A stretch of 49,743 bases of DNA from a virus, in the IMG/VR virus record IMGVR_UViG_3300045988_138037. The stretch is one strand, 5' to 3'. The notes below the pieces were generated by a model. The model searched no databases, was not told where the DNA came from, and saw nothing but the letters and a program-made list of their open reading frames with translations. Positions within the stretch are counted from its first letter, which is position 1; each line of letters starts with the position of its first letter. A program made the translations under genes and the position numbers. Shown here piece after piece: positions 1 through 49,743 of the stretch.

Positions 1-55
1 AAAAAGAATTAAAAGAATTAAAACTTACTAAAAACATCATCATACCTTTTCCTAA
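1..55. repeat. 55-bp terminal direct repeat identical to 49689..49743 (assembly overlap of a circular or circularly permuted genome)
   Basis: The string aaaaagaattaaaagaattaaaacttactaaaaacatcatcataccttttcctaa occurs at both window ends. Confidence 0.95.
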
Positions 56-89: not shown

Positions 90-2405
90 ATGAATGATAA
101 CTTTGAGGAGATAGAACACGCTTATAATACCCTTATAGATAATCATAATGGTGCGATAAAGCGTTTAGAAGAAGCTATAAACTCTATCCCAGAAATTGAA
201 GATTTAGTAGGTGTAAAAGGAGATAAAGGGGACAAAGGAGAACAAGGCGAACGTGGTGAGAAAGGTGAGAAGGGCGACAAAGGAGATAAGGGTGATAAAG
301 GAGATAGAGGTGAACCAGGTATACAAGGTATACAGGGTGTAAAAGGAGACAAGGGAGATAAAGGCGATAAGGGTGAAGATGGTGTTATCATATTTGAAGA
401 ATTAACACCAGAACAAAAAGCTACTCTTAAAGGTGATAAGGGGGATAGAGGAGAACAAGGTTTACCAGGTGAAAAAGGCGAGAAGGGTGATAATGGTATA
501 ACTCCAAACATTAAGGTTGGTAAAGTTGTAACTCTTGAGCCAACTGAACAAGCAAATGTTGAGAGAGTTGGCACGTTAGAAAACCCAACATTCAATTTCT
601 ATATTCCAAGAGGTCTTGATGGAAGTGGTGAAGGCTCTGGCGATGGGCACACTCACTCTAATTTAAGTGCATTAAACTCTATAACTCAATCTAAAATAAA
701 TGCGTGGGACGATAAAGCTCCTTCAAATCACTCACATACAGAATATGCAAGTAGTTCACATACACACAGTAATTATGCAAATACATCACATACACATACT
801 GAATACGCTTCAACTAATCATACACATAATTATGCAAGTGCATCACATACTCACTCTGATTACGCTAACAAAACGCATACACATACTGATTATGCTAATA
901 AAACACATACTCATAGTACAAGTGATATAAGTAATTTAAGTAGTTATGTTTCTAGTTTGATTACTAATGATACTTATATAAACTCATTAAAAAGCACTAT
1001 TGATACACTTTCTTCTGAACTTACAAAAGTAAAGACAGATATTGAAGCGTTAAAAAATAACTCTGGTAGTGCTAACATTCCTGTAACAGGCATTAACTGT
1101 TCTGAATGGGAAGTTAATTTACAAGTTGGACAAACAAGACAAATAATTGCAAGTGTTATTCCTTCAAGCGCCACAAACAAATTGATACATTGGTACTCTG
1201 ATAATACTCTTGCTGTTGATGTTAGTTCAAATGGTTTAATAACGGCAAAAGGTGTTGGTTATTCAAAGGTTACTGCTACAACAGATGATGGTGGACACAA
1301 ATATGATATTCGTGTTACCGTAACTGCAAGTAGTGGTGGAGGAAGTGGAAGTACAACTACCTCTGGAATAAAAGTAGCACCTGAAAGTGTTTCAATAGAA
1401 CGTGGTAAAACTGTTGACGTAACAATATCATTTGGAAGTGATGTTATAAACAAAAATATTGAGTGTATGAGTAGTAGTGGAGCTATTGCTAGTGTATCTG
1501 ATTTAGGAAGTCATAGATACAGAATAACAGGAGTAGGTCAAGGACAAACTTCAATAAGATTTAGAACTTCTGATGGGAAATTTGAGGTTTCTTGTTCTGT
1601 AACAGTTACTGCACCCTCAAGTGGTGGTGGAGGTGAAATGACTTCAAATGAGTACGAAGAGTCTTGTAAAAGTGAGTATATACTTGACAAAATGTACCCA
1701 ATGGGTCAAGCACACGAAGCCATACCTAACGGTAATATAACAGGTTGGAAACACAATAGTAGATGGGAAAACCAATATAGACCTACTGCTATGGCTCACA
1801 GTTGTGGTCAAAGTGGATGTCCAGGAACAGGTGCGTTTCAAGCACTAGGTTGTTGGTCTAATATATATAGAGTTGAAGGAACACCTTTTACTCAAAATAC
1901 AGGTGTTGAGATGAAGGATATAAAAGTTTATGGTTGGTATAATGGAGCTTGGGAATTAGTTCAACATCTACCTGTACCAAATGGTAACTTTTACGCAGAG
2001 TCATTTAGTGGAGACAGTAATAGATATTTTGGAGATAGCGTTAAACAATCTAGCACATCAAAAACTATAATACTTAGAGAGGCAAACAAGATTAATTCAG
2101 AAAACTGTATGTATCACCCATTTTCAAATATAAAGGCTTTTGATACTAAATACCAATACATTTATACTTGTATAGACTTACGTAAAGTTAAGTGGAATGA
2201 AAATGGTGTAGATGATAGAGACCAAACTCATTATTGCAGTAATTGTGGTGGAGATTGGTGGTTAAAAGAAGGGTTAATGTTCCACGATAGTTGGCAACAC
2301 AACAAAGGTGTATGTCAACCTAAGATGATTGAAATTACAAATGAATGGAGAAGGTTTAGTATGACTACTGTTCCGCAAGGTTGGTCAAACGGCTTCCCTC
2401 AATAA
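90..2405 (+). CDS. Collagen-like tail fibre / receptor-binding protein. The true start is probably 49682, across the junction.
   Basis: G-X-Y repeats ([18 protein letters not shown]...), eight HxH repeats (SHTHSNYA-type), a coiled coil, two Big_2-like Ig domains and a C-terminal Cys/Trp-rich domain. The frame is open from position 3 and no SD precedes the ATG at 90. Confidence 0.8.
210..383 (+). repeat. Collagen-like G-X-Y triplet tract (19 triplets); a second tract of 7 triplets lies at 432..497
   Basis: [58 protein letters not shown] read from the translation. Confidence 0.9.
648..914 (+). repeat. Array of eight His-x-His motifs with roughly 10-aa periodicity (xxHTHxxYA)
   Basis: GHTHS, NHSHT, SHTHS, SHTHT, NHTHN, SHTHS, THTHT and THTHS in the translation. 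Confidence 0.9.
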
Positions 2406-14707: not shown

Positions 14708-14781
14708 TGGCAGGAGTGGTAAGAATTGAACTCACGTCTACGGTTTTGGAGACCGTTGTGTTACCATTACACCACACTCCT
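14708..14781 (-). tRNA. trnW: tRNA-Trp (anticodon CCA) with encoded CCA end
   Basis: The reverse complement AGGAGTGTGGTGTAATGGTAACACAACGGTCTCCAAAACCGTAGACGTGAGTTCAATTCTTACCACTCCTGCCA folds as a 74-nt cloverleaf. It has a 7-bp acceptor stem, anticodon loop CTCCAAA and T-loop TTCAATT. Confidence 0.9.
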
Positions 14782-16434: not shown

Positions 16435-16950
16435 TTAATACTTATTATCTTGTCTTTTGTGATTTTCTTTATTTTTGTCTTTATAGCACTTGTATAAATC
16501 TTCTATATTGTATCCACACTTATTAACTACTACTCCTAATACCAATAATATTTGGTTTAAATCTTCCCAATCTTTCTCGATAAACATATCGCTTATCATA
16601 CAATCTAGCATACCGATTAAATCATTCATATCATATTCATCTGTATTATAATCGCCTGGTTGCTTTTCTTCTACTAATTCAACTCTATTATCTATTGCTA
16701 TACTTAGTATAAAGTGTAGTACATCACATGCTTCTTCTAGTTGATTAGTTTTATTTTTGTTTTTCTTCCAATATTTAAAACTTTCTATCTCGTTTGCTAA
16801 TTCAAATAACTCTGTTTTTAAAGCTAAGAATTTCTCTATATTTAGGTTAGCGTCCGCAGGTATATCATTTTCTTTTTTTACTCTTGTGTCTAATTTTCTT
16901 TGTAAGCGTCTCATTTCGTTTAATTCTTCTTGTGTAAAAACTGTTCTCAT
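16435..16950 (-). CDS. Dimeric (all-alpha) dUTPase / NTP pyrophosphohydrolase family protein
   Basis: KFLALKTELFELANEIESFKYWK, EEACDVLHFILS and a C-terminal YKDKNKENHKRQDNKY resemble dUTPase_2-family motifs. Confidence 0.65.
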   Translation of the reverse strand: MRTVFTQEELNEMRRLQRKLDTRVKKENDIPADANLNIEKFLALKTELFELANEIESFKYWKKNKNKTNQLEEACDVLHFILSIAIDNRVELVEEKQPGDYNTDEYDMNDLIGMLDCMISDMFIEKDWEDLNQILLVLGVVVNKCGYNIEDLYKCYKDKNKENHKRQDNKY

Positions 16951-16972: not shown

Positions 16973-17332
16973 CTACATATCGCAAATATCTTGCTCGTAC
17001 TCTTTAATTATAACATTTTTTCTATTTTCTGCCAATGCTTTAAGCCCTAATTCACACGTTTGTATTATAGCACTTATACCTGCACAAGTTATACTGTCCT
17101 CGTTATGTCCGTGTACTTCTATATTCATATAACCGTCGCCTTTAGTTATGTTTATTTTAGTTATACCTTCTAGTTTTCTCAATTTTATATCACTCCTTTT
17201 TCTTCCACTTATTATACTTGATACGTGTCCTTGTGTTATTCCGTATTTTTTCGCTATATCTATTTGTTTTTCTCCATTAAGATATGCACTCTTTATCTTT
17301 TCTATTTCGTGATTTGTTAATTTAAACTCCAT
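16973..17332 (-). CDS. prp: Fusion of an N-terminal HTH domain with a Prp-like (ribosomal protein L27-processing) cysteine protease domain
   Basis: HTH: QIDIAKKYGITQGHVSSIISG. Prp catalytic His/Cys signature: EVHGHNEDSITCAGISAIIQT (compare S. aureus Prp GHADHGEYGHDIVCAGASAV). Confidence 0.7.
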   Translation of the reverse strand: MEFKLTNHEIEKIKSAYLNGEKQIDIAKKYGITQGHVSSIISGRKRSDIKLRKLEGITKINITKGDGYMNIEVHGHNEDSITCAGISAIIQTCELGLKALAENRKNVIIKEYEQDICDM

Positions 17333-17336
17333 TTTA

Positions 17337-18161
17337 TTACCCCCACATTTTCGCCATTAAAGTGTTGTACATAAGTGATAAAACTGTCATTACTCCTGTA
17401 TGACCCGTTCCAGATGCTACTAACACATCAAGCTCTTCTAAATCTTCAATTTTTACATCTCCACAAAGTTTACCTTCGTACATATTCATAGAACAATCTA
17501 TTATTATTTGTCCGTCTTTAAAATAACTCTTATCGAAGAATTTAGCTTTACCTATACCTGTTATAACTATATCTGCGTTTTGCATCTTCTCTTTTAAGTT
17601 TTTAGTTTTTGAATGACACATTGTAACAGTTGCATTTTCATCTGTAAGCATTATTTGAAGCGGTTTACCTATTAAATTACTTCTATTTACTATTACTACG
17701 TCTTTTCCTTCTAATTCTGTGATGTGAATTAACATATTTAAAACACCAAGAGCAGTACAAGGGTACATTATTTTACCGTTTTGAGTAGTTAATCTACCTA
17801 TTTGTTTAGTACCTAGACCGTCTACGTCTTTCTCCACATCAATAGTATCAAGAGTTTTACGCTCGTCTAAGTGTTTTGGAAGTGGCAATTGAACTATTAT
17901 ACCATTTGTATCACAATCTGTGTTGTAATACTCTATAATCATTTCTAAATCTCTTTGTGGTATATCGTTTTTTAATAACGTATGTTCAACTTCTATACCT
18001 AACTCTTTGCCTAATTTAATTTTGTTCTTAACATAAGAATTTGATGCTTTATCTCCTTCAACTTGTAATATAACTAATTTAGGAGCAATGCCTTTTGTCA
18101 TTGAAGCCTTAAACGCATCCTTTATTTCTTGTGCTATTTCTTTTGTATTTATTATATTCAT
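17337..18161 (-). CDS. folD: Bifunctional 5,10-methylene-tetrahydrofolate dehydrogenase/cyclohydrolase
   Basis: PKLVILQVEGDKASNSYVKNKIK, GIIVQLPLPKHL, KDVDG, PCTALG, VVIVNRSNLIGKPL and ATVTMCHSKT motifs. Confidence 0.85.
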   Translation of the reverse strand: MNIINTKEIAQEIKDAFKASMTKGIAPKLVILQVEGDKASNSYVKNKIKLGKELGIEVEHTLLKNDIPQRDLEMIIEYYNTDCDTNGIIVQLPLPKHLDERKTLDTIDVEKDVDGLGTKQIGRLTTQNGKIMYPCTALGVLNMLIHITELEGKDVVIVNRSNLIGKPLQIMLTDENATVTMCHSKTKNLKEKMQNADIVITGIGKAKFFDKSYFKDGQIIIDCSMNMYEGKLCGDVKIEDLEELDVLVASGTGHTGVMTVLSLMYNTLMAKMWG

Positions 18162-27284: not shown

Positions 27285-27923
27285 TTATAAACCTATCTCT
27301 TCATCTTCTTCTGATGATTTGTTAGAGAATACTTCTTCTGGACTCTTACCACTCATTAATCCTAAAACTTGTTCTTGTGTAGGTTTTTTAAATATTTCAT
27401 CAAACGCTTTTAAATCTTTACATAATTCTTTTTGTTCATCAGTTAATTCTGATGGTGTACAAGGTAATAATGTATAAGTTACGTCTGTACTTCCTGCATT
27501 TTGAGTTTTTACTTTTATATTATAACTTCTTATATCTCCTATCTCTTCGTGTAGAGCATGTAATTGAGTAAAGAATGTTTTTCCTTGTTCTAATATTTCA
27601 ACATTACCTGTTTTTAAGTTTAATACGTGCATAGCAAATCTTCTGTTACTTGAATATTGAGGTTTTATTCCTGCTTGTTTTGATGCTTTTATTGCATTAC
27701 ATATTGGACATTCTGCTCCTAAACAAGATACATTTCTCTTTGCTTGTGCTATCCAATGTGCCCATCTTACAAATGGTTCTCCATCTAAAAATCTTAATTC
27801 TGTTAATCCATTTGTTAATTTAGTAAATTCAGTCTTTCCTGTGTTTGATTGAGGGTCTCTTAATACTTCATCCCACCCTCCGAACATTTGTAAATTCATA
27901 GCATTGTTTAATTCTTTCATCAC
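27285..27923 (-). CDS. gp32-like single-stranded DNA-binding protein with a zinc finger, an acidic C-tail and an L27-like N-terminal leader
   Basis: ELRFLDGEPF..H..CLGAECPICNAI..YSSNRRFAMHVL parallels T4 gp32 IRFLPS..H..C..CPVCQYI. Acidic tail SSEEDEEIGL. MNLQMFGG at aa 9-16. Confidence 0.55.
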   Translation of the reverse strand: MMKELNNAMNLQMFGGWDEVLRDPQSNTGKTEFTKLTNGLTELRFLDGEPFVRWAHWIAQAKRNVSCLGAECPICNAIKASKQAGIKPQYSSNRRFAMHVLNLKTGNVEILEQGKTFFTQLHALHEEIGDIRSYNIKVKTQNAGSTDVTYTLLPCTPSELTDEQKELCKDLKAFDEIFKKPTQEQVLGLMSGKSPEEVFSNKSSEEDEEIGL

Positions 27924-33889: not shown

Positions 33890-34708
33890 TTAAGCATTTA
33901 TTTCTGCTATTAATCTTTGTAAGAACATTATTTTATTGTTTATAGCGTGAGCTTCTTCTATGTAAAATCTGTAAGACTTTTCTAAATCTTCTAGCTCTTT
34001 ATTTAAAACATCCATAGCTTTACTATCTTTTGACTCAACTTCTATTTCTCTTACATCAACTACTTCTTCTCTAACTTCTCTTATATCAACTACTTCTTCT
34101 CCATTAAACCCATCAACAATCTCGTTATAAACACTTAAAAACATATCTTCTTCAACTACTAATGTTTCATTACCAACTTCTATTTGTAAAAAGTTATCTC
34201 CACACATATTTATACTGTCTGTATTTATTACTTGTGGAAGTTTTACACCTAATAATATCGTTACTTCTTCTTGTGTACAATCTGTTTTTCTAAAACTAGC
34301 ATTACCTTTTATCATCTTCATAGCAACAAGTAAGTTACCATTGTTTATTCTTGTATCAAGTGCTACCTTCTCACCGTCTAATCTTACCTCGTGGTTAGAT
34401 ACACCTATATTAGCTCTTTCAAATATTTCGTAAGCAGTATCTCCTTCTGTGTACTCAACAACTTCTAATCTACCTGGCATCATACCAACCTTTATGTTTG
34501 GCATATTACCTTTTATCATTTTCATAGCAACTAATAAATTTCCATTGTGTATAGTTCTGTCTAAATCTATCTTTTCTCCGTCTAATCTTATTTCGTGATT
34601 AGATAACTCTACATCTGCTATTTCAAATATTTCTCTTGCAGTTGCTCCTTCGTTTGTAACTACCTCTACTAATCTACCTGGCATCATTCCTACTTTAATT
34701 TTTAACAT
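33890..34708 (-). CDS. Tandem ubiquitin-like (beta-grasp, ThiS/MoaD-like) domain protein with a C-terminal coiled-coil extension
   Basis: Two 68-aa repeats: (M)xKIKVGMMPGRL.VV...G.TA.EIFE.A.....NHE(I/V)RLDGEK..LD..I.NGNLLVAMKMIKGN. Confidence 0.6.
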   Translation of the reverse strand: MLKIKVGMMPGRLVEVVTNEGATAREIFEIADVELSNHEIRLDGEKIDLDRTIHNGNLLVAMKMIKGNMPNIKVGMMPGRLEVVEYTEGDTAYEIFERANIGVSNHEVRLDGEKVALDTRINNGNLLVAMKMIKGNASFRKTDCTQEEVTILLGVKLPQVINTDSINMCGDNFLQIEVGNETLVVEEDMFLSVYNEIVDGFNGEEVVDIREVREEVVDVREIEVESKDSKAMDVLNKELEDLEKSYRFYIEEAHAINNKIMFLQRLIAEINA

Positions 34709-37998: not shown

Positions 37999-38029
37999 TT
38001 TGACTACCTCCTATAATTTAATTAATAAT

Positions 38030-38081
38030 ATTTATACTTACAACACACACCCTTTAGGGTGTACTTCCCTAAAACGGTTTT
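38030..38081 (-). promoter_or_regulatory. Copy 1 of a conserved ~52-bp element (hairpin acaccc-ttta-gggtgt plus aaaac-g-gtttt) upstream of gene 37633..37998
   Basis: Near-identical to 39084..39134. Confidence 0.6.
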
Positions 38082-38463
38082 AATAAAAAATTCTTAACAC
38101 ATCACTAACTGTGAACTCACTCAAAGAGCTTCTTATATCGTCAAGTGGGTTAGCTCTTACGTAAGGTACATATTTATGACCGTTATCTCTTAGTTGTTGT
38201 ACACCTTCAAGAAGTGTAACTTCTTGGAACGTCTCGCAAACCTCTTGTATATCTACTTCATCAACTTCTTTTATATCAACGATGTTGTACTTATTTTCAA
38301 TGTATTCTCTATACTCTTCAAACTGTAATCTCTTGTTCTCTGCGTATATCTCTGCTTTAATTTTAGATAACTCAACTCTTTTTTTACTAACTTTTCTCTT
38401 TTCTAACTCGAACTTAACTAATTCTCCAACTAATAAAACTAAAACTATTAATAACATATTCAT
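38080..38463 (-). CDS. Hypothetical protein with an N-terminal TM helix
   Basis: MNMLLIVLVLLVGELV...; SD aaaggag. Confidence 0.5.
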   Translation of the reverse strand: MNMLLIVLVLLVGELVKFELEKRKVSKKRVELSKIKAEIYAENKRLQFEEYREYIENKYNIVDIKEVDEVDIQEVCETFQEVTLLEGVQQLRDNGHKYVPYVRANPLDDIRSSLSEFTVSDVLRIFY

Positions 38464-39034: not shown

Positions 39035-39083
39035 TTTAATTTCCTCCTTATGTACGTAACAACGCACTACTTAATTAATATAT

Positions 39084-39134
39084 ATTTATACTTGCAACAC
39101 ACACCCTTTAGGGTGTACTCCCCAAAACGGTTTT
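39084..39134 (-). promoter_or_regulatory. Copy 2 of the conserved ~52-bp hairpin element, upstream of gene 38522..39034
   Basis: atttatacttgcaacacacaccctttagggtgtactccccaaaacggtttt versus copy 1: 2 substitutions and a 1-nt indel. Confidence 0.6.
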
Positions 39135-39339
39135 CAAAACAATAAATACATTAGCCGATATACTTGTGATTAGAGTTAGAAAGATTTGATAATGTGTAAA
39201 TGCTTTGCGAAAATTAATTATAATTAATTTTCTAGGTTTGAACGTAGTGAAAACCTATAATAAGATACGTATTATAATGTTATAAAAGAAGTATATAAAA
39301 AGGAGTAGAATAACTCGTAAATTGATGTGAAATTTAACA

Positions 39340-40221: not shown

Positions 40222-40250
40222 TTGACAACAATTTTTTTATAAGTTACTAT
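40222..40250 (+). promoter_or_regulatory. Candidate sigma-70-type promoter for the rightward (late/structural) unit
   Basis: TTGACA, a 17-nt spacer, then TACTAT. Confidence 0.4.
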
Positions 40251-40424
40251 ATACGTATAAATACGTGTAGTAAACGTGTATGAAACGTTCTATAAACCTC
40301 CGTTGGAGGTTTAGTGATTTTCATTACATTCAAATCACACAAATATAAACATATAAATACGTATCTTCCTGTTACTTAAATCTTTGATTTGAGTAACTAA
40401 AACGAGTGAAACGAGTTTTATAGA

Positions 40425-40476
40425 ACGTATTAATAACGTATATAACACGTATATAAACGTGTATATAACGTATAAA
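40425..40476 (+). repeat. Array of five ACGT(G)TAT(ATAA) direct repeats at 10-12 bp spacing, just upstream of the first rightward ORF
   Basis: ACGT cores at 40425, 40436, 40447, 40457 and 40468. A similar array has cores at 40253, 40263, 40274 and 40285. Confidence 0.7.
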
Positions 40477-43231: not shown

Positions 43232-45344
43232 TTCTAAAAAATATATGCCTACTGAAAAGGAAAGAAAACTTGTAGAGTGGGTGTATTCTAAATTTAAACA
43301 AGCATATGTTGCTAAAGCTCCACTTATGGACAAGTGGAAAGAATATATGAGTGCGTATAAAGGTACGTACTTCCAAAATAAGAACTTACCAGATTACAAA
43401 TCAAATGAGATAAGTAATCACGTATTTTCAACAATAGAAACTATAAGACCTATAATGACAGATAATAACCCTAAGTTCTTAGCAGTTCCTTCTACACCAC
43501 AAGGTATGGAATTTTCTGCCGATGTGCAAACTGCACTTGATTATGAATGGGATAGAGAGAAAATGTCTTTAAAACTTCCTGCACAACTTATACCAATGTT
43601 AGTATATGGAAACGCAGTATGGTTTGTTCAATGGGATGGTAAAGACGGTGAATACGGTAATATAAGTATAAAACCTGTTGACCCTTTCAATATATTTCCA
43701 GACCCATTGGCAGAAAGTGTTGACAATTCTGAATTTTTGGTTTATGCTACTTATAGAAACGCAAATCAAATCAAACAACAATTCCCAGAAAAAGCAAGTG
43801 CCATAGAAGGTTCACGTATAACAATGTCTGAATTAGTTGCCGAAAGAGATAATAACGATACACAAGATGCAAACCAAGTTTTAATACTTGAAATGTGGTG
43901 TCGTGATTGGGTAACAATGGACGAGTCGGTAGAAGGTAAAAAACAACTTAAATATCCTAAAGGAAGAGTTATAACGTGTTTACCAGAATTAGGTATCTTG
44001 TTATCTGATAAGAAAAACCCTTATAAAGATGGAAAATTCCCATTTGTACTTATGAAAAACTATGATATACCTTTTGAGTTTTGGGGTGTTGGAGAAATAG
44101 AACAAATAATGTCTCCTCAACACTATGTAAACGAACTTACAAATCAAATCATAGATAATGCTAAAAATACTGCTAATATGCAATGGATAATAGATAAAAA
44201 CTCTGGTATAGGACAAGGTAAACTTACTAACCGTCCAGGACTTGTTATAAGAAAGACTCCTGGTAGTGAAGTTAGAAGAGATACACCACCTGCTATGCCA
44301 AGTTATGTTAGAGAGCAAATAGAAGTTCTTAAAAAAGATATACAAGATATATCTGGAGTGTTTGACTCACTAAAAGGTGAGCAACAAGGTAGTGTAACTG
44401 CGGCGTCTGCAATACTTGCACTTCAAGAAGCATCTCAAGCACGTATACGTTTAAAAATAAAACTTATGGAAGCATCACTTTCTGAACTTGCTCAAATAGT
44501 TTATTCACGTATGCAACAGTTTTGGAAACTAGATAGATGGGTTAGAGTTACTGATGTAGAAGGTAATCCGTCGTTTAGAGAAATTGGTGCACAAGTTCTT
44601 TCAAATGATTATGACTTAAAAGTTATGGCAGGTTCTACAATGCCTGTAAATAGAAACGCTATGTTAGACTTAATGATTAGACTTGCTCAAACAAATGGTG
44701 AGGACGGTTTACCTCTTGTAGATAGAAAAGCCGTATTAGAGTTCTTACCAACAGGAGATAAGAAAGCTATAACAGATAGATTTGCAGAGCTTCAAGCTCA
44801 ACAACAACAAGCTCAACAAGAACAGTTACAACAAGAGCAACAAATGCAAATGCAACAAGCTCAACAACAAAAAGGTGAGTTAGACCAAAGTGTAACTGAA
44901 CAAGTAATGAGTATGTTACAACAAGTTGTTCAAGCGTCTGATTTGACTTCTAAACAAGTTGATGAACTTATAATGGATAAAGAACAAAGAGATAAGAAAG
45001 AGTATGAGTCTCAAATCGAAGAAAAAGGTTATAAGAGAGGATTAAAAGACGGTAAAGTGCAAAGTAAAGAAGAAGAGGAAGAAACGCCTACTGAGGAAAC
45101 TTCTGATGTGAATGAAGAAGAAAAGAAAATGTTAGAAGAACAATTACTTTCTGAAAATGCACAAATGGAAGAAGCACTTAACTCTCAACAAATACCAGAT
45201 GAAGTCTTAGAAGAGTTATTAGCTTTAGCTCAACAAGACCCAGAGATGTTTAGAGAGATATTACAAAACTATCCACAATTAGCAGAAATGCTACAACAAG
45301 ATATGCAAAATATGAATGGGGGAATGATTAATGAAGATATGTAA
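43221..45344 (+). CDS. Portal protein
   Basis: 707 aa, directly after the terminase genes and before the scaffold and capsid genes; Q/E-rich C-terminal tail. Confidence 0.75.
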   Translation: MSDNSKKYMPTEKERKLVEWVYSKFKQAYVAKAPLMDKWKEYMSAYKGTYFQNKNLPDYKSNEISNHVFSTIETIRPIMTDNNPKFLAVPSTPQGMEFSADVQTALDYEWDREKMSLKLPAQLIPMLVYGNAVWFVQWDGKDGEYGNISIKPVDPFNIFPDPLAESVDNSEFLVYATYRNANQIKQQFPEKASAIEGSRITMSELVAERDNNDTQDANQVLILEMWCRDWVTMDESVEGKKQLKYPKGRVITCLPELGILLSDKKNPYKDGKFPFVLMKNYDIPFEFWGVGEIEQIMSPQHYVNELTNQIIDNAKNTANMQWIIDKNSGIGQGKLTNRPGLVIRKTPGSEVRRDTPPAMPSYVREQIEVLKKDIQDISGVFDSLKGEQQGSVTAASAILALQEASQARIRLKIKLMEASLSELAQIVYSRMQQFWKLDRWVRVTDVEGNPSFREIGAQVLSNDYDLKVMAGSTMPVNRNAMLDLMIRLAQTNGEDGLPLVDRKAVLEFLPTGDKKAITDRFAELQAQQQQAQQEQLQQEQQMQMQQAQQQKGELDQSVTEQVMSMLQQVVQASDLTSKQVDELIMDKEQRDKKEYESQIEEKGYKRGLKDGKVQSKEEEEETPTEETSDVNEEEKKMLEEQLLSENAQMEEALNSQQIPDEVLEELLALAQQDPEMFREILQNYPQLAEMLQQDMQNMNGGMINEDM

Positions 45345-46125
45345 AATGAATTTACAAATGTTTGGTATGAACGATGATAGAGACTTCTTTACATCTGCTT
45401 TTAATGAAGCATATAGTATAACTGATAATACAGAAGCACCTTCTGAGCCAATAGAAGAGCCTGTAAGCGACTCTGTTGAGGAAGTTGAAGAAACACCTGT
45501 TGAAACAACTCCAGTGCCTTATAACCCAAATGACGATGAATTAAGAAGGTTGTATGAGGAGCGTTTTGGTAAAGAAGAAGAACCACAACAAGAAGTTAGT
45601 CCTGTGTATGATGAGGAAACTCAATCTGCACTTGATTTATATAAATATTTAGAACAAAACCCACATCTAGTTCAAGCTATGAGAAACGTAGATGTTGAAG
45701 GTTATACAAACTTAAATAACTTTGTTCCAGATGAATTAACTAAGAAGGTTAAAGAGATGGAAGAGTTTATTGAAGAACAAAGATACAACAGTTATGTATC
45801 TGGACTTAAAAACAAGTATTCTGATTTTGATGAAGATAAGGTTTTAGAATATGCAGAAAAACACGATGTTTTAAACTTAGAAGTAGCTTATAAAGCTATG
45901 AAAGCAGATAGTGTTAAAGAGCCAAATGTAGAAGAACTTAGAAAACAAATCAAAGAAGAGTTACTTAATGAACTTAAACAAAACTCCCTTGAGACACAAT
46001 CAATAGTTGGTGGAGTATCCCAAAAGCCTATCAAACAGGATGACAATGTTAATCTGTCAAGTAGAGAGTCAAGGATAGCGAAAGCTATGGGAATGACACC
46101 TAGCGAATATGCCAAGTGGAGATAA
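45331..46125 (+). CDS. Scaffolding protein with an L27-like N-terminal leader
   Basis: Acidic and helical, between portal and capsid. The N-terminus MKICKMNLQMFG resembles the Firmicute L27 leader (MLKLNLQFFA). Confidence 0.65.
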   Translation: MKICKMNLQMFGMNDDRDFFTSAFNEAYSITDNTEAPSEPIEEPVSDSVEEVEETPVETTPVPYNPNDDELRRLYEERFGKEEEPQQEVSPVYDEETQSALDLYKYLEQNPHLVQAMRNVDVEGYTNLNNFVPDELTKKVKEMEEFIEEQRYNSYVSGLKNKYSDFDEDKVLEYAEKHDVLNLEVAYKAMKADSVKEPNVEELRKQIKEELLNELKQNSLETQSIVGGVSQKPIKQDDNVNLSSRESRIAKAMGMTPSEYAKWR

Positions 46126-46163: not shown

Positions 46164-47192
46164 ATGCCAAAATTAAAAATGAACTTACAAATGTTTGGTG
46201 CACAAACACCAGTAGACCCAACAACAACTAACACTCACGTGTCTGAAAACTTTGGTAAATTATTATACCCAGGTTTAAGAAAGATATTCTTCGAGACTTA
46301 TGATGAGATACCAGAGCAATTCCCAAAAATATTCAACGTACAAACTTCTACTTCTGCAACTGAAACAGACCACGGAATGGGAGCATTTGGTGATTGGGAA
46401 GAAAGAACATCAGAAGTTAGCACAGTAGCATACGCTAAAATATCTGATGGTGGAGGTGTTACTTACACTCACAAGGCTTTCACTAAAGGTTTTATGATAG
46501 GTAGAGAATTATACGATGACGAAAAATATGGTCAAATGAAGAAAATGGCTAAAGCACTTGCTAGAGCAGGTAGAGCTAAAGTTGAAAGAGATGCTATAAC
46601 TGTTTTAACTAAAGGTTTCAAAGGAACAAGTGGTGCTTTCAAAGGTAGAGATGAAAAAGAGTTATTCCACGATGCTCATACATTAGTTGACTGTTCAAGT
46701 AAAACTTGTTCAAACTTAGTGAAAGGAGCTTTATCAAGAGAAACATTAAAAGAAGGATTAAAATTAATGAGAACTCAATTAGATGAAGCAGGTAACTTAA
46801 TACAAATGAAAGCTACTAAGTTAATAATACCTCCTGCTTTAGAAGATGAAGCTAGAAGAATATTACATTCTACACAAGTATCTGGAACTGAATTAAATGA
46901 TACAAACGAATACTTAAAGAGTGCAGGTCTTGAAATAGTAGTTCTTGACTACTTAGGAGAAGAAGCAGGTGGTTCTGATACTATGTGGTTCTTACAAGAC
47001 GGTTCAAGACACGAATTAAACTTCTTCTGGAGAGTTAAACCAGAGTTTAAAAATGAAGAAGATTTCGATACTTTCGTTGCTAAGTACAGAGGGTATATGA
47101 GATATTCTTACGGGTTCTCTGATTGGAGAGGTATGGTAGGTTCTAAAGGTGAAGCTGAACTTTCATCAACAGGTAGAGCTTCTAAAAAATAA
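46164..47192 (+). CDS. Major capsid protein with an L27-like N-terminal leader
   Basis: Position, size (342 aa) and a strong terminator downstream; N-terminus MPKLKMNLQMFGA. Confidence 0.75.
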   Translation: MPKLKMNLQMFGAQTPVDPTTTNTHVSENFGKLLYPGLRKIFFETYDEIPEQFPKIFNVQTSTSATETDHGMGAFGDWEERTSEVSTVAYAKISDGGGVTYTHKAFTKGFMIGRELYDDEKYGQMKKMAKALARAGRAKVERDAITVLTKGFKGTSGAFKGRDEKELFHDAHTLVDCSSKTCSNLVKGALSRETLKEGLKLMRTQLDEAGNLIQMKATKLIIPPALEDEARRILHSTQVSGTELNDTNEYLKSAGLEIVVLDYLGEEAGGSDTMWFLQDGSRHELNFFWRVKPEFKNEEDFDTFVAKYRGYMRYSYGFSDWRGMVGSKGEAELSSTGRASKK

Positions 47193-49681: not shown

Positions 49682-49743
49682 ATGAAAGAAAAAGAATTAA
49701 AAGAATTAAAACTTACTAAAAACATCATCATACCTTTTCCTAA
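49682..49743 (+). CDS. 5' end of the collagen-like tail fibre gene; continues in frame across the circular junction into 90..2405
   Basis: The ATG at 49682 is preceded by SD gaaagga. [32 protein letters not shown] joins MNDNFEE... in the same frame (32 extra codons). Confidence 0.65.
   Translation, partial: MKEKELKELKLTKNIIIPFP
49689..49743. repeat. 55-bp terminal direct repeat identical to 1..55
   Basis: Exact string identity with the window start. Confidence 0.95.

What the first reader, a model, noticed from the sequence alone, without database searches (positions are those of the whole stretch)
16973..17332. Phage-encoded Prp-like cysteine protease fused to an HTH domain
The C-terminal half contains the His/Cys dyad context of Prp, the protease that removes the N-terminal extension of ribosomal protein L27 in Firmicutes and relatives: NIEVHGHNEDSITCAGISAIIQTCELG versus S. 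aureus Prp GHADHGEYGHDIVCAGASAV. The N-terminal 50 aa form a typical HTH (IDIAKKYGITQGHVSSIISG). The host Prp is known to process the capsid and scaffold proteins of staphylococcal phage 80alpha. Here the phage carries its own copy, placed among nucleotide-metabolism genes rather than in the head module. Its fusion to a DNA-binding domain is an unusual architecture.
Basis: partly seen in the sequence, partly recalled or inferred. Interest (0 to 1): 0.8.

Follow-up and report, generated by a model that had tools for sequence, protein, structure and literature searches.

The report
Phage HTH fused to half-size Prp protease
A gut-type phage encodes a small protein that joins a DNA-binding domain to a half-length version of the bacterial ribosome-processing protease Prp, and three of the phage's own proteins (scaffold, capsid and a DNA-binding replication protein) start with the matching cleavage signal.

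Summary
A 119-aa ORF lies at 16973-17332 on the minus strand. It has an N-terminal three-helix HTH and a C-terminal Prp-like segment with an invariant His76/Cys83.

The interpretation needs one correction. The Prp part is not a full Prp domain. It is a 62-68-residue single repeat (β-hairpin, His...Cys, one helix, a terminal strand). It aligns with both halves of canonical Prp (hhalign 99.0% and 96.3%), so I call it a "half-Prp".

The same half-Prp occurs as a stand-alone 60-70-aa gene. It does so at this very locus in sister phages, and in the head modules of other phages, including cultured Streptomyces phage Kromp. The HTH is therefore a lineage-specific addition, found in about 20 protein clusters. 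Both halves are under purifying selection.

The genome has no conventional prohead protease. Its scaffold, major capsid and SSB-like proteins all begin with the exact leader MNLQMF·G, a close mimic of clostridial L27 leaders.

The most likely function is an oligomeric, phage-encoded Prp-type cysteine protease that removes these leaders, with the HTH adding DNA binding. Catalysis, oligomerisation and the role of the HTH are inferred, not shown. I rate it a new variant of a known kind, of moderate to high interest.

The parts
16973..17332 (-). Whole gene: HTH-half-Prp fusion protein, 119 aa plus stop codon
   Evidence: ORF list and sequence. About 20 homologous clusters of 114-124 aa. dN/dS is 0.07-0.21.
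17340..17344 (-). Ribosome-binding site (GGGGG on the minus strand), 7 nt upstream of the ATG, inside the 3' end of the FolD gene
   Evidence: Read directly from the sequence. This is a consensus match only.
17201..17332 (-). N-terminal three-helix HTH domain (residues 1-44; helices 7-18, 23-30, 34-42)
   Evidence: AF2 pLDDT 84-89. Sigma70_r4 is hit in 16 of 20 members, best E = 3.4e-8, with KorA, Mor and HTH_3 next. PHROG HTH and transcription-regulator families also match.
17168..17200 (-). Basic, poorly conserved linker (residues 45-55), variable in length between homologues
   Evidence: pLDDT below 50 for residues 45-55. Some homologues have 5-residue insertions here.
16976..17167 (-). Half-Prp domain (residues 56-119): β-hairpin 59-64/69-74, Gly75-His76, Cys83, helix 78-101, terminal NVIIKE strand
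   Evidence: Pfam Prp positions 2-63 of 90. hhalign to the canonical Prp N-half gives 99.0% and to the C-half 96.3%. The AF2 model has pLDDT 91. PDB hits are Prp only. The BFVD top hit is a 61-aa 'Cysteine protease Prp'.
17105..17107 (-). Codon of His76, the putative catalytic His (SaPrp His22 equivalent)
   Evidence: Invariant in alignments A1 and A3. Aligned to SaPrp GH.
17084..17086 (-). Codon of Cys83, the putative nucleophile (SaPrp Cys34 equivalent)
   Evidence: Invariant in alignments A1 and A3. Aligned to SaPrp Cys34.
17072..17074 (-). Codon of Ser87 (Cys+4; SaPrp Ser38 equivalent, essential in SaPrp)
   Evidence: Invariant in A1 and at least 90% conserved in A3. The role of Ser38 is taken from PMC9405229.
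45331..46125 (+). Putative scaffolding protein with leader MKICK-MNLQMF|G (leader at nt 45331-45363): candidate substrate
   Evidence: Lies between the portal and MCP genes. Leader found. The leader is conserved in relatives.
46164..47192 (+). Major capsid protein with leader MPKLK-MNLQMF|G (leader at nt 46164-46196): candidate substrate
   Evidence: Mu gpT-like/Phage_capsid_4. Prp-type leaders are present in all 33 IMG/VR homologues.
27285..27920 (-). SSB-like DNA-binding protein with leader MKELNNA-MNLQMF|GG (leader at nt 27882-27920): candidate substrate outside the virion module
   Evidence: phrog_14578 and phrog_1192 ssDNA-binding proteins. The MNLxxFG leader is present in nearly all of about 57 full-length homologues.
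16435..16950 (-). Dimeric dUTPase gene, the invariant downstream neighbour of the half-Prp gene
   Evidence: Pfam dUTPase_2, E = 6e-33. The same synteny appears in L001-L009 and L052.
17337..18161 (-). FolD gene, the upstream neighbour, replaced by other genes in some relatives
   Evidence: Pfam THF_DHG_CYH domains. The slot holds Bmp or a small ORF in relatives, and FolD again in L052.

Best explanation
The gene encodes a two-domain protein. Its C-terminal 62-68 residues are a single-repeat ("half") member of the Prp cysteine-protease lineage. It has one β-hairpin ending in Gly-His, a short loop, the nucleophile Cys at the start of one helix with Ser at Cys+4, and one terminal strand.

Canonical Prp contains two such repeats in tandem, and only the first keeps His/Cys. 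The half-Prp must therefore self-associate, at least into a dimer that imitates one Prp subunit and probably into a tetramer that imitates the Prp dimer, to form the substrate groove.

The assembled enzyme would remove the N-terminal leader (x)nMNLxMF|G from the phage scaffold, major capsid and SSB-like proteins. This is the same way host Prp removes MxxxNLQ(L/F)F|A from pre-L27 and from the 80alpha capsid and scaffold proteins.

In this lineage an N-terminal sigma-70-region-4/KorA/Mor-like HTH has been added to a pre-existing stand-alone half-Prp gene. The oligomer would then also be a multivalent DNA-binding protein, either an autoregulator or a DNA-tethered protease.

Shown: homology, the half-size architecture, conserved catalytic residues, purifying selection, the leaders and their conservation, and the absence of another prohead protease. 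Inferred: oligomerisation, catalysis, the identity of the substrates, and any DNA binding.
For: Homology:
- Pfam Prp, E = 7e-5. All 20 family members hit Prp.
- An exhaustive profile search with the domain recovers bona fide Prp proteins, which score 73-89 bits on Pfam, and matches them in two stretches.
- hhalign to canonical Prp gives 99.0%, E = 4e-18 for the N-half and 96.3%, E = 1.9e-9 for the C-half.
- The only PDB hits are Prp structures.
- The only significant BFVD hit is a 61-aa phage 'Cysteine protease Prp'.

Catalytic residues:
- G75, H76, C83 and S87 are invariant.
- They correspond to SaPrp G21, H22, C34 and S38, all of which are required for activity.

The half-Prp is an autonomous unit:
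- Stand-alone 60-70-aa forms occur at the same locus in sister phages.
- They also sit next to portal, scaffold and capsid genes elsewhere, including Kromp gp6, which is annotated as a protease.
- No second Prp-like piece is encoded in the window.
- The half-domain AF2 model is confident, with pLDDT 91.

Substrates:
- An exact MNLQMFG leader is carried by three unrelated proteins, against an expectation of 6e-6 occurrences.
- The leader is conserved in homologues, and the cleavage point sits just before the conserved mature N-terminus TPV(D/Q)P.
- It mimics the published L27 leaders.
- No conventional prohead protease was found.
- P3 varies among Q, K, R, E and C. In one lineage it switches to K in scaffold and capsid together. 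This fits the shortened His-Cys loop, which in SaPrp reads the P3 Gln.

Selection: dN/dS is 0.07-0.13 for the half-Prp and 0.16-0.21 for the HTH.
Against: - The window protein scores below Pfam's curated cut-off.
- Foldseek of the confident half-domain model found no PDB Prp structure; the best E-value was 1.7.
- The L2 loop is 5 residues shorter than in L27-cleaving Prps. It lacks the Gly29 equivalent, and the Asp is out of register. Mutating Asp31 to Ala (D31A) inactivates SaPrp.
- The likely hosts are Clostridia (MAG bins). These have their own Prp, and the leader resembles host L27 leaders closely, so the host enzyme could do the job as it does for 80alpha.
- Oligomerisation could not be modelled.
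- No DNA target was identified.
- The gene sits in the replication and nucleotide-metabolism operon, which does not by itself point to head maturation.
Confidence: 0.55

Rival explanations
1. The host Prp removes the leaders, as in staphylococcal phage 80alpha. The phage protein is mainly a transcription factor. In this reading the half-Prp serves as a dimerisation and leader-peptide-binding (sensor) module and is not the processing enzyme.
For: The leader is a close mimic of clostridial L27 leaders. The probable hosts are Clostridia. There is precedent for host processing. The HTH resembles the Sigma70_r4, KorA and Mor regulators. The gene lies among early and middle genes. The catalytic loop is shortened.
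Against: Sister phages have the half-Prp without any HTH at the same locus. The catalytic G-H, C and S are invariant over very divergent half-Prps, which a pure dimerisation module would not need. P3 variants (K, R, E) and Gly, Ser or Pro at P1' depart from the canonical host motif. Kromp infects Streptomyces, an actinobacterium; actinobacteria are not among the phyla the review lists as encoding Prp, yet Kromp carries a half-Prp between its scaffold and MCP genes.
Confidence: 0.22
2. It is an anti-host or takeover factor. The half-Prp pairs with or competes against host Prp, or cuts or sequesters host pre-L27. This would modulate ribosome assembly during infection.
For: It is homologous to the enzyme that handles pre-L27. 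A half-unit could in principle heterodimerise with a homologous fold. It is expressed from the early/middle operon. An inactive Prp that binds L27 is toxic in S. pneumoniae.
Against: Three phage proteins carry the matching leader, which gives a sufficient phage-internal role. Half-Prps sit in head modules in other phages. No evidence of any host interaction was obtained.
Confidence: 0.08
3. It is a truncated, non-functional remnant of a captured host prp gene, fused by accident to a neighbouring HTH ORF.
For: Only about 60% of the Pfam profile is covered and the score is below the cut-off.
Against: The same length and layout recur in dozens of divergent stand-alone proteins. There is strong purifying selection on both halves. 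The C-terminal 'LGLKxLA...V.I.E' ending corresponds to the true C-terminus of canonical Prp and not to a random break. The AF2 model is confident.
Confidence: 0.03
4. The conserved His/Cys (with Cys93) bind a metal or act in redox sensing, making the protein a metal- or redox-responsive HTH regulator that has nothing to do with proteolysis.
For: There are three conserved His/Cys residues in the window family (H76, C83, C93). The protein has an HTH.
Against: Cys93 is not conserved outside the close family; it is Ala or Thr in other half-Prps. H, C and S align exactly with the Prp catalytic residues. The matching leaders in the same genome would be left unexplained.
Confidence: 0.03

Closest known systems
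Prp, the phage-related ribosomal protease (YsxB/DUF464; Pfam PF04327; MEROPS C108, clan CR), e.g. S. aureus Prp (PDB 4PEO, 7KLD)
   Same: Homologous sequence. Shares Gly-His, the Cys nucleophile and Ser at Cys+4. Candidate substrates carry an N-terminal ...NLQxF|small-residue leader. There is precedent for processing phage capsid and scaffold proteins (80alpha).
   Different: Only one of the two tandem repeats is present (62-68 aa against about 105-113 aa). The His-Cys loop has 6 residues against about 11 (though TM1457 also has 6). It is phage-encoded rather than sitting between rplU and rpmA. It is fused to an HTH. P1' is Gly and P2 is Met in the leaders, and P3 is not fixed.
Stand-alone short phage Prp-like proteins (e.g. 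Streptomyces phage Kromp gp6 'protease', 62 aa; UniProt A0A6J5LQL6 'Cysteine protease Prp', 61 aa; metagenomic P0025-P0036)
   Same: Same half-size domain and catalytic residues. Some occupy exactly the same locus upstream of the dUTPase gene in sister phages.
   Different: They lack the HTH. Many sit in head modules next to portal, scaffold or capsid genes. None has been characterised, and they are only auto-annotated or annotated by similarity.
LexA / lambda CI-type repressors (N-terminal HTH plus C-terminal S24 peptidase that is also the dimerisation domain)
   Same: Same logic of architecture: a DNA-binding HTH followed by a small protease domain that would also provide oligomerisation.
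   Different: An unrelated protease fold and mechanism (Ser/Lys S24 against Cys/His Prp). There is no sign of a self-cleavage site in the linker and no Pfam S24 match. The resemblance is by analogy only.
Streptococcus phage Cp-1 capsid-processing cysteine protease (the other member of MEROPS clan CR, as stated in PMC9405229)
   Same: A phage-encoded cysteine protease of the same clan that removes an N-terminal extension from a capsid protein.
   Different: No detectable sequence match in my searches. Cp-1 was not among the tblastn hits. It has a different size, and its leader is about 40 residues long.

Membership tests
Prp (Pfam PF04327 Peptidase_Prp / MEROPS C108) | Score at or above the curated family threshold (27 bits) | tested here: not met
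   23.4 bits, E = 7.2e-5, covering profile positions 2-63 of 90. NCBIfam Prp equivalog models score 17 bits against cut-offs of 122-225. All 20 homologues hit at E <= 0.01, with a best E of 2.4e-6.
Prp (Pfam PF04327 Peptidase_Prp / MEROPS C108) | Demonstrable homology to bona fide Prp by profile methods | tested here: met
   hhalign 99.0%, E = 4e-18. The exhaustive reverse search recovers full-length Prp proteins. The only PDB hits are 4PEO/7KLD, 1S12, 2G0I, 7JVS and 2IDL.
Prp (Pfam PF04327 Peptidase_Prp / MEROPS C108) | Catalytic His/Cys dyad with the flanking Gly and with Ser at Cys+4 | tested here: met
   G75, H76, C83 and S87 are invariant. They align to SaPrp G21, H22, C34 and S38.
Prp (Pfam PF04327 Peptidase_Prp / MEROPS C108) | Flexible L2 loop of about 11 residues with Gly29 and Asp31, which read the P3 Gln | tested here: not met
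   The loop is NEDSIT (6 residues), with no Gly29 equivalent and with Asp at Cys-4 instead of Cys-3. TM1457, a Prp that does not cleave L27, has the same short spacing.
Prp (Pfam PF04327 Peptidase_Prp / MEROPS C108) | Complete two-repeat ββαβαβ fold of about 95-115 residues | tested here: not met
   Only a hairpin, one helix and a tail were found. The domain aligns separately to each half of Prp. No second half is encoded anywhere in the window. Foldseek against PDB gave no hit.
Prp (Pfam PF04327 Peptidase_Prp / MEROPS C108) | Homodimeric enzyme with the substrate groove at the subunit interface | not testable with these tools
   No multimer prediction was available. Oligomerisation is inferred from the half-size unit.
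Prp (Pfam PF04327 Peptidase_Prp / MEROPS C108) | Substrates with an N-terminal (D/N)LQ(F/L)F|A-type leader, and actual cleavage | tested here: inconclusive
   Three phage proteins carry MNLQMF|G, and the leaders are conserved in homologues. Cleavage itself cannot be tested in silico.
Prp (Pfam PF04327 Peptidase_Prp / MEROPS C108) | Gene located between rplU (L21) and rpmA (L27) | tested here: not met
   It is a phage gene lying between the FolD and dUTPase genes. This feature defines the cellular orthologue, not the fold family.
Sigma-70 region 4-like / KorA / Mor-type HTH | Three-helix HTH matching the family profile | tested here: inconclusive
   The window protein scores 19.4 bits against a cut-off of 24.1. 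16 of 20 homologues hit Sigma70_r4, best E = 3.4e-8, 8 hit KorA and 7 hit Mor. AF2 models three helices at pLDDT 84-89. DNA binding was not tested.
LexA/CI-type HTH-S24 peptidase repressors | S24 Ser/Lys peptidase domain and a self-cleavage site in the linker | tested here: not met
   No S24 match in Pfam, PHROGs or NCBIfam. The linker RKRSDIKLRKLEG has no Ala-Gly/Cys-Gly site and no Prp-type site.

The most novel reading that the evidence does not exclude
The half-Prp is the unduplicated (or minimal, deletion-derived) unit of the Prp fold. It works only as a symmetric oligomer and has an active site on every chain.

In this phage it has been turned into a LexA-like switch. The HTH-half-Prp oligomer binds phage DNA, and its DNA binding or oligomeric state responds to occupancy by the leader peptides of the scaffold, capsid and SSB proteins. 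Gene expression or replication would then be coupled to the supply and processing of these assembly proteins.

The leader would in that case be a portable, phage-private processing and regulation tag that has spread from the capsid to the scaffold and to a replication protein.
Probability: 0.12. Interest if true: 0.85.

Novelty: new variant of a known kind. Interest (0 to 1): 0.62.

Why it matters
Prp is an essential protease and an antibiotic target. It has so far been treated as a roughly 105-115-residue two-layer fold that works as a dimer.

This locus and its relatives show that a 60-70-residue single repeat keeps every catalytic residue, is widespread in phages, and is under strong purifying selection. 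Two things follow. First, the canonical enzyme looks like an internal duplication; I found no mention of this in the Prp papers I could read. Second, a minimal and experimentally tractable version of the enzyme exists.

It also extends the 80alpha paradigm of phage proteins carrying the L27 leader in two ways. Some phages bring their own Prp-type enzyme. And the leader can tag a replication (SSB-like) protein as well as virion proteins.

The HTH fusion would be the first Prp-family protein coupled to a DNA-binding domain. That opens the possibility of a link between leader processing and gene regulation. All functional steps still need experiments.

Tried and rejected
1. Near-identity search of the 5-kb neighbourhood in 50,697 phage records found no match. 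The phage group is known only from metagenomes.
2. A sequence search of PDB with the full-length family profile gave only marginal hits, with TM1457 at E = 0.13. It needed the broader half-Prp profile.
3. Foldseek of the full-length model (pLDDT 65) gave only weak HTH and MarR hits, which I consider meaningless.
4. Foldseek of the confident half-domain model against PDB gave nothing. The fold-level test is therefore inconclusive. Only BFVD gave one significant hit.
5. I tested whether the HTH is a separate upstream gene in phages with a stand-alone half-Prp. It is not: the 67-aa upstream ORF in L009 is not an HTH.
6. I tested whether a second Prp half is encoded elsewhere in the genome. HMM searches of all six frames reject this.
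7. The co-variation test by scanning IMG/VR for the MNLKMFG variant returned only single, mostly chance matches per contig, so it was uninformative. Partial evidence came from scaffold/MCP pairs on short contigs.
8. Host identification through genome contigs gave only MAG bins (Ruminococcus, Oscillospiraceae, Ca. Fimicola, and one Bacteroidales). These are unreliable for phage contigs.
10. Literature searches for short or HTH-fused phage Prp found nothing relevant. The two original Wall et al. papers are not held in the library, so any statements they make about phage-encoded homologues could not be checked.
11. The promoter scan around the gene gave fewer sites than the shuffled controls (26 against 31.5), so no promoter claim is made.
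Full report
**1. What is there**

The window is a complete, circularly assembled phage genome of about 49.7 kb with 31.7% G+C. Bases 1-55 are identical to 49689-49743. It has no near relative among 50,697 deposited phage records.

At 16973-17332 on the minus strand lies a 119-aa ORF with an ATG start. A GGGGG ribosome-binding site sits 7 nt upstream, inside the end of the preceding FolD gene.

The gene belongs to a long minus-strand operon of replication and nucleotide-metabolism genes. Reading along that strand these are the DNA Pol III alpha subunit, a PD-(D/E)XK nuclease, FolD, this gene, a dimeric dUTPase and RusA.

**2. Two domains**

Residues 1-44 form a three-helix HTH. AF2 models it at pLDDT 84-89. 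Across 20 homologues it hits Sigma70_r4 in 16 (best E = 3.4e-8), KorA in 8 and Mor in 7. In tblastn it resembles the HTH modules at the N-termini of phage HNH endonucleases and "HTH DNA-binding proteins".

Residues 45-55 are a basic linker of variable length.

Residues 56-119 match Pfam Peptidase_Prp at E = 7.2e-5 and 23.4 bits. That is below the 27-bit cut-off and covers only profile positions 2-63 of 90.

**3. The family**

The large protein database holds about 20 clusters with the same 114-124-aa architecture at 65-99% identity. The Prp half is almost invariant. His76, Cys83, Gly75, Ser87 and the whole helix CAGISAIIQTCELGLKALAE are conserved. The HTH half varies more but is clearly conserved.

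Nei-Gojobori estimates give dN/dS of 0.16-0.21 for the HTH and linker and 0.07-0.13 for the Prp half. Both parts are therefore maintained by selection.

**4. It is half a Prp**

I ran an exhaustive HMMER search of 1.84 billion representative proteins with the 68-residue domain profile. It found 79 proteins at E <= 1e-3. They fall into two groups:
- Many stand-alone proteins of 57-75 aa with the same layout.
- Proteins of about 103-117 aa that the profile matches in two separate stretches.

Proteins sampled from the second group are bona fide Prp, scoring 73-89 bits over the full Pfam profile. Sampled short proteins match only profile positions about 1-55, and two of them exceed the cut-off.

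Alignments make the relationship explicit. Canonical Prp reads β-β-GH-loop-C-helix(...QTAxLGL...), followed by β-β(DGYL...)-helix(...ETMLLGLKD...YPxYVKVE). The short forms and the window domain run from the first helix straight into the "LGLKxLA...V.I.E" ending.

The window-family profile aligns with both halves of canonical Prp by hhalign:
- To the N-half at 99.0%, E = 4e-18, including the His/Cys.
- To the C-half at 96.3%, E = 1.9e-9, over 62 columns that include the DGY hairpin and the terminal strand.

A profile of 32 half-size proteins hits only the five solved Prp sequences in PDB. SaPrp 4PEO/7KLD scores E = 4e-7 and is again matched in two stretches, residues 1-41 and 59-106.

With this deeper alignment AF2 gives a confident model (pLDDT 91, pTM 0.72). 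It shows a β-hairpin, one long helix and an extended tail.

Foldseek against PDB found nothing significant, so the fold-level test is inconclusive. Against BFVD the single significant match is a 61-aa phage protein that UniProt names "Cysteine protease Prp" (prob 1.00, TM 0.64/0.70).

No second Prp-like piece is encoded anywhere in the six frames of the window.

The published Prp fold is ββαβαβ, and the enzyme is a homodimer whose interface holds substrate residues P4 and P6. A ββα(β) unit cannot form that alone. I infer self-association.

The half-Prp could be the ancestral single repeat. It could equally be a deletion derivative, produced by recombination between the two similar helix segments. 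My data do not decide between these.

**5. Catalytic residues**

In SaPrp, G21, H22, C34 and S38 are required for activity. Asp31 and Gly29 of the flexible L2 loop read the P3 Gln (PMC9405229). The window protein keeps G75, H76, C83 and S87. Its His-Cys loop, however, has 6 residues instead of about 11. It has no Gly29 equivalent, and the Asp is one position out of register. TM1457, a Prp from an organism without the long L27, has the same short spacing.

**6. The HTH is an add-on**

Stand-alone half-Prps occupy exactly the same slot, upstream of the dimeric dUTPase and RusA genes, in sister phages:
- P0025 in L007-L009, where the preceding 67-aa ORF is not an HTH.
- A 46.5-kb IMG/VR genome whose polymerase is 89% identical (L016).
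- A MAG contig with PD-(D/E)XK nuclease, FolD, a 61-aa half-Prp, dUTPase and RusA in that order (L052).

In other phages, half-Prps sit in virion modules:
- Directly after a P22/SU10-type portal gene (P0034).
- Near Gp80-family and large tail genes.
- In cultured Streptomyces phage Kromp, as the 62-aa gp6 "protease" between the scaffold and major capsid genes. Kromp's scaffold and capsid also share an N-terminal WF(Q/R)L(T/D)RHD string.

Among deposited phage genomes such genes are rare. Only Kromp was found for the half form, and seven mostly unannotated records for the full-length form.

**7. Candidate substrates**

Three ORFs begin with the exact heptapeptide MNLQMFG:
- The scaffold protein (45331-46125), MKICK-MNLQMF|G.
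- The major capsid protein (46164-47192), MPKLK-MNLQMF|G.
- A 212-aa protein in the replication module (27285-27923), MKELNNA-MNLQMF|GG. It matches PHROG ssDNA-binding protein families.

The expected number of occurrences of this heptapeptide in the 14,983-aa proteome is 6e-6. No 7-mer was shared by three ORFs in any of 300 shuffles.

Published L27 leaders of Clostridia and relatives are M(L/M)xMNLQ(L/F)F|A, and those of 80alpha are KLKFNLQFF|A and KLKLNLQHF|A. The phage leader is a close mimic of both.

All 33 IMG/VR homologues of the capsid protein (51-99% identity) carry a Prp-type leader that ends immediately before the conserved mature N-terminus TPV(D/Q)P. Distant members have the textbook DLQLF|A, and their scaffold proteins have no leader.

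Nearly all of about 57 full-length homologues of the SSB-like protein have MNLxxFG after a variable pre-sequence. P3 is Gln in 31 and Lys, Arg, Glu, Gly, Asn or Ser in the others.

Within contigs, scaffold and capsid leaders are similar but not always identical. In one lineage both have switched P3 from Gln to Lys. P6, P5, P4 and P1 ([MI]-[ND]-L-x-x-F) are constant.

No HK97-, U35-, S49- or ClpP-type prohead protease was found in the genome.

The 80alpha literature notes the same leader on non-homologous virion proteins, a capsid and a tail protein. I found no report of it on a replication protein.

**8. Mechanism proposed**

The half-Prp self-associates to rebuild a Prp-like active site and removes the leader from the three phage proteins. 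The HTH makes the oligomer a DNA-binding protein, either an autoregulator or a DNA-tethered enzyme. In overall logic this is analogous to LexA and CI, where the protease domain is also the dimerisation domain.

The shortened P3-reading loop, together with the variable P3 and the non-Ala P1' of the leaders, fits a phage-private enzyme-leader pair. That is an inference.

The main rival is that host Prp does the cutting, as in 80alpha. The likely hosts are Clostridia, on the weak evidence of MAG bins, and these have Prp. In that case the phage protein would be mainly a regulator.

Arguments against the rival:
- HTH-less versions occupy the same locus.
- The catalytic residues are strictly conserved.
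- Kromp carries a half-Prp although its host, Streptomyces, is an actinobacterium, and actinobacteria are not among the phyla the review lists as encoding Prp.

**9. Comparison and novelty**

The protein works like Prp and is homologous to it. It nevertheless fails three membership criteria for the canonical family: the curated score, the full two-repeat fold and the long L2 loop. I therefore file it as a new variant, an HTH-fused single-repeat Prp, and not as a member of C108 in the strict sense.

Short phage "Prp" proteins already exist in databases with automatic or similarity-based names. I found no description of their half-size nature, of the internal duplication of Prp, or of an HTH fusion. 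The review PMC9405229 contains no occurrence of "duplication" or "pseudo". The two original Wall et al. papers were not available to me.

**10. Verdict**

All functional steps remain to be shown experimentally. Interest is 0.62.

Noticed in passing
window 27285-27923 (-): An SSB-like replication protein (phrog_14578/1192) carries the same N-terminal MNLQMF|G leader as the scaffold and capsid proteins. The leader (MNLxxFG) is conserved in nearly all of about 57 full-length homologues. A Prp-type leader on a non-virion protein appears not to have been reported.
   Followed up: partly
window 1-55 and 49689-49743: An identical 55-nt overlap at both ends. The window is a complete, circularly assembled genome of about 49,688 bp.
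   Followed up: no
window 40248-40300 / 40413-40465: A 53-nt imperfect inverted repeat built of AAACGT(G/A)TAT-like iterons. It lies in the divergent intergenic region between the minus-strand replication genes and the plus-strand terminase genes. It is a candidate origin or operator, and a possible target of the HTH.
   Followed up: no
window 38028-38088 and 39082-39142: A 61-nt direct repeat (85% identical) containing the hairpin ACACACCCTTTAGGGTGT. It could be a regulatory or terminator element, and it is repeated 1 kb apart.
   Followed up: no
window 17337-18161 (-): A phage-encoded FolD (bifunctional methylene-THF dehydrogenase/cyclohydrolase) lies immediately upstream. In relatives the same slot holds a Bmp-family lipoprotein gene or a small ORF, so it is a variable auxiliary-gene slot.
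   Followed up: partly
window 90-2405 (+): A 771-aa tail-fibre-like or Ig-domain protein with collagen-like GXY repeats (nt 201-512) and a run of His-rich 30-nt repeats (nt 714-945).
   Followed up: no
window 34301-34708: A 204-nt tandem duplication (75% identical) inside the ORF 33890-34708, which has no family match.
   Followed up: no
window 14708-14781 (-): A single tRNA-Trp (CCA) gene between the lysis and replication modules.
   Followed up: no
L056 (Streptomyces phage Kromp, MH744420.1 4952-7213): Kromp gp6, annotated 'protease', is a 62-aa half-Prp between the scaffold gp5 and the MCP gp7. gp5 and gp7 share an N-terminal WF(Q/R)L(T/D)RHD string about 15-25 residues in. This is possibly the cleavage signal of that system, in a host phylum without Prp.
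   Followed up: partly
proteins P0032 (139 aa) and P0033 (117 aa): These show another architecture: an N-terminal half-Prp followed by a helical C-terminal extension of unknown nature.
   Followed up: no
window 16976-17167 versus 17168-17332: Synonymous divergence between relatives is about half as large in the half-Prp part (dS about 0.9-1.1) as in the HTH part (about 1.7-2.1). This could reflect saturation noise, nucleotide-level constraint or recombination.
   Followed up: no
L023-L043 (IMG/VR contigs with capsid homologues of 57-66% identity): In the distant relatives only the capsid protein carries a leader (the canonical DLQLF|A type), and the scaffold starts directly with MNI(D/E)EYRA. 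The leader seems to have spread to the scaffold and SSB proteins only in the clade that has the half-Prp. Whether the distant relatives lack a half-Prp could not be checked on these short contigs.
   Followed up: partly
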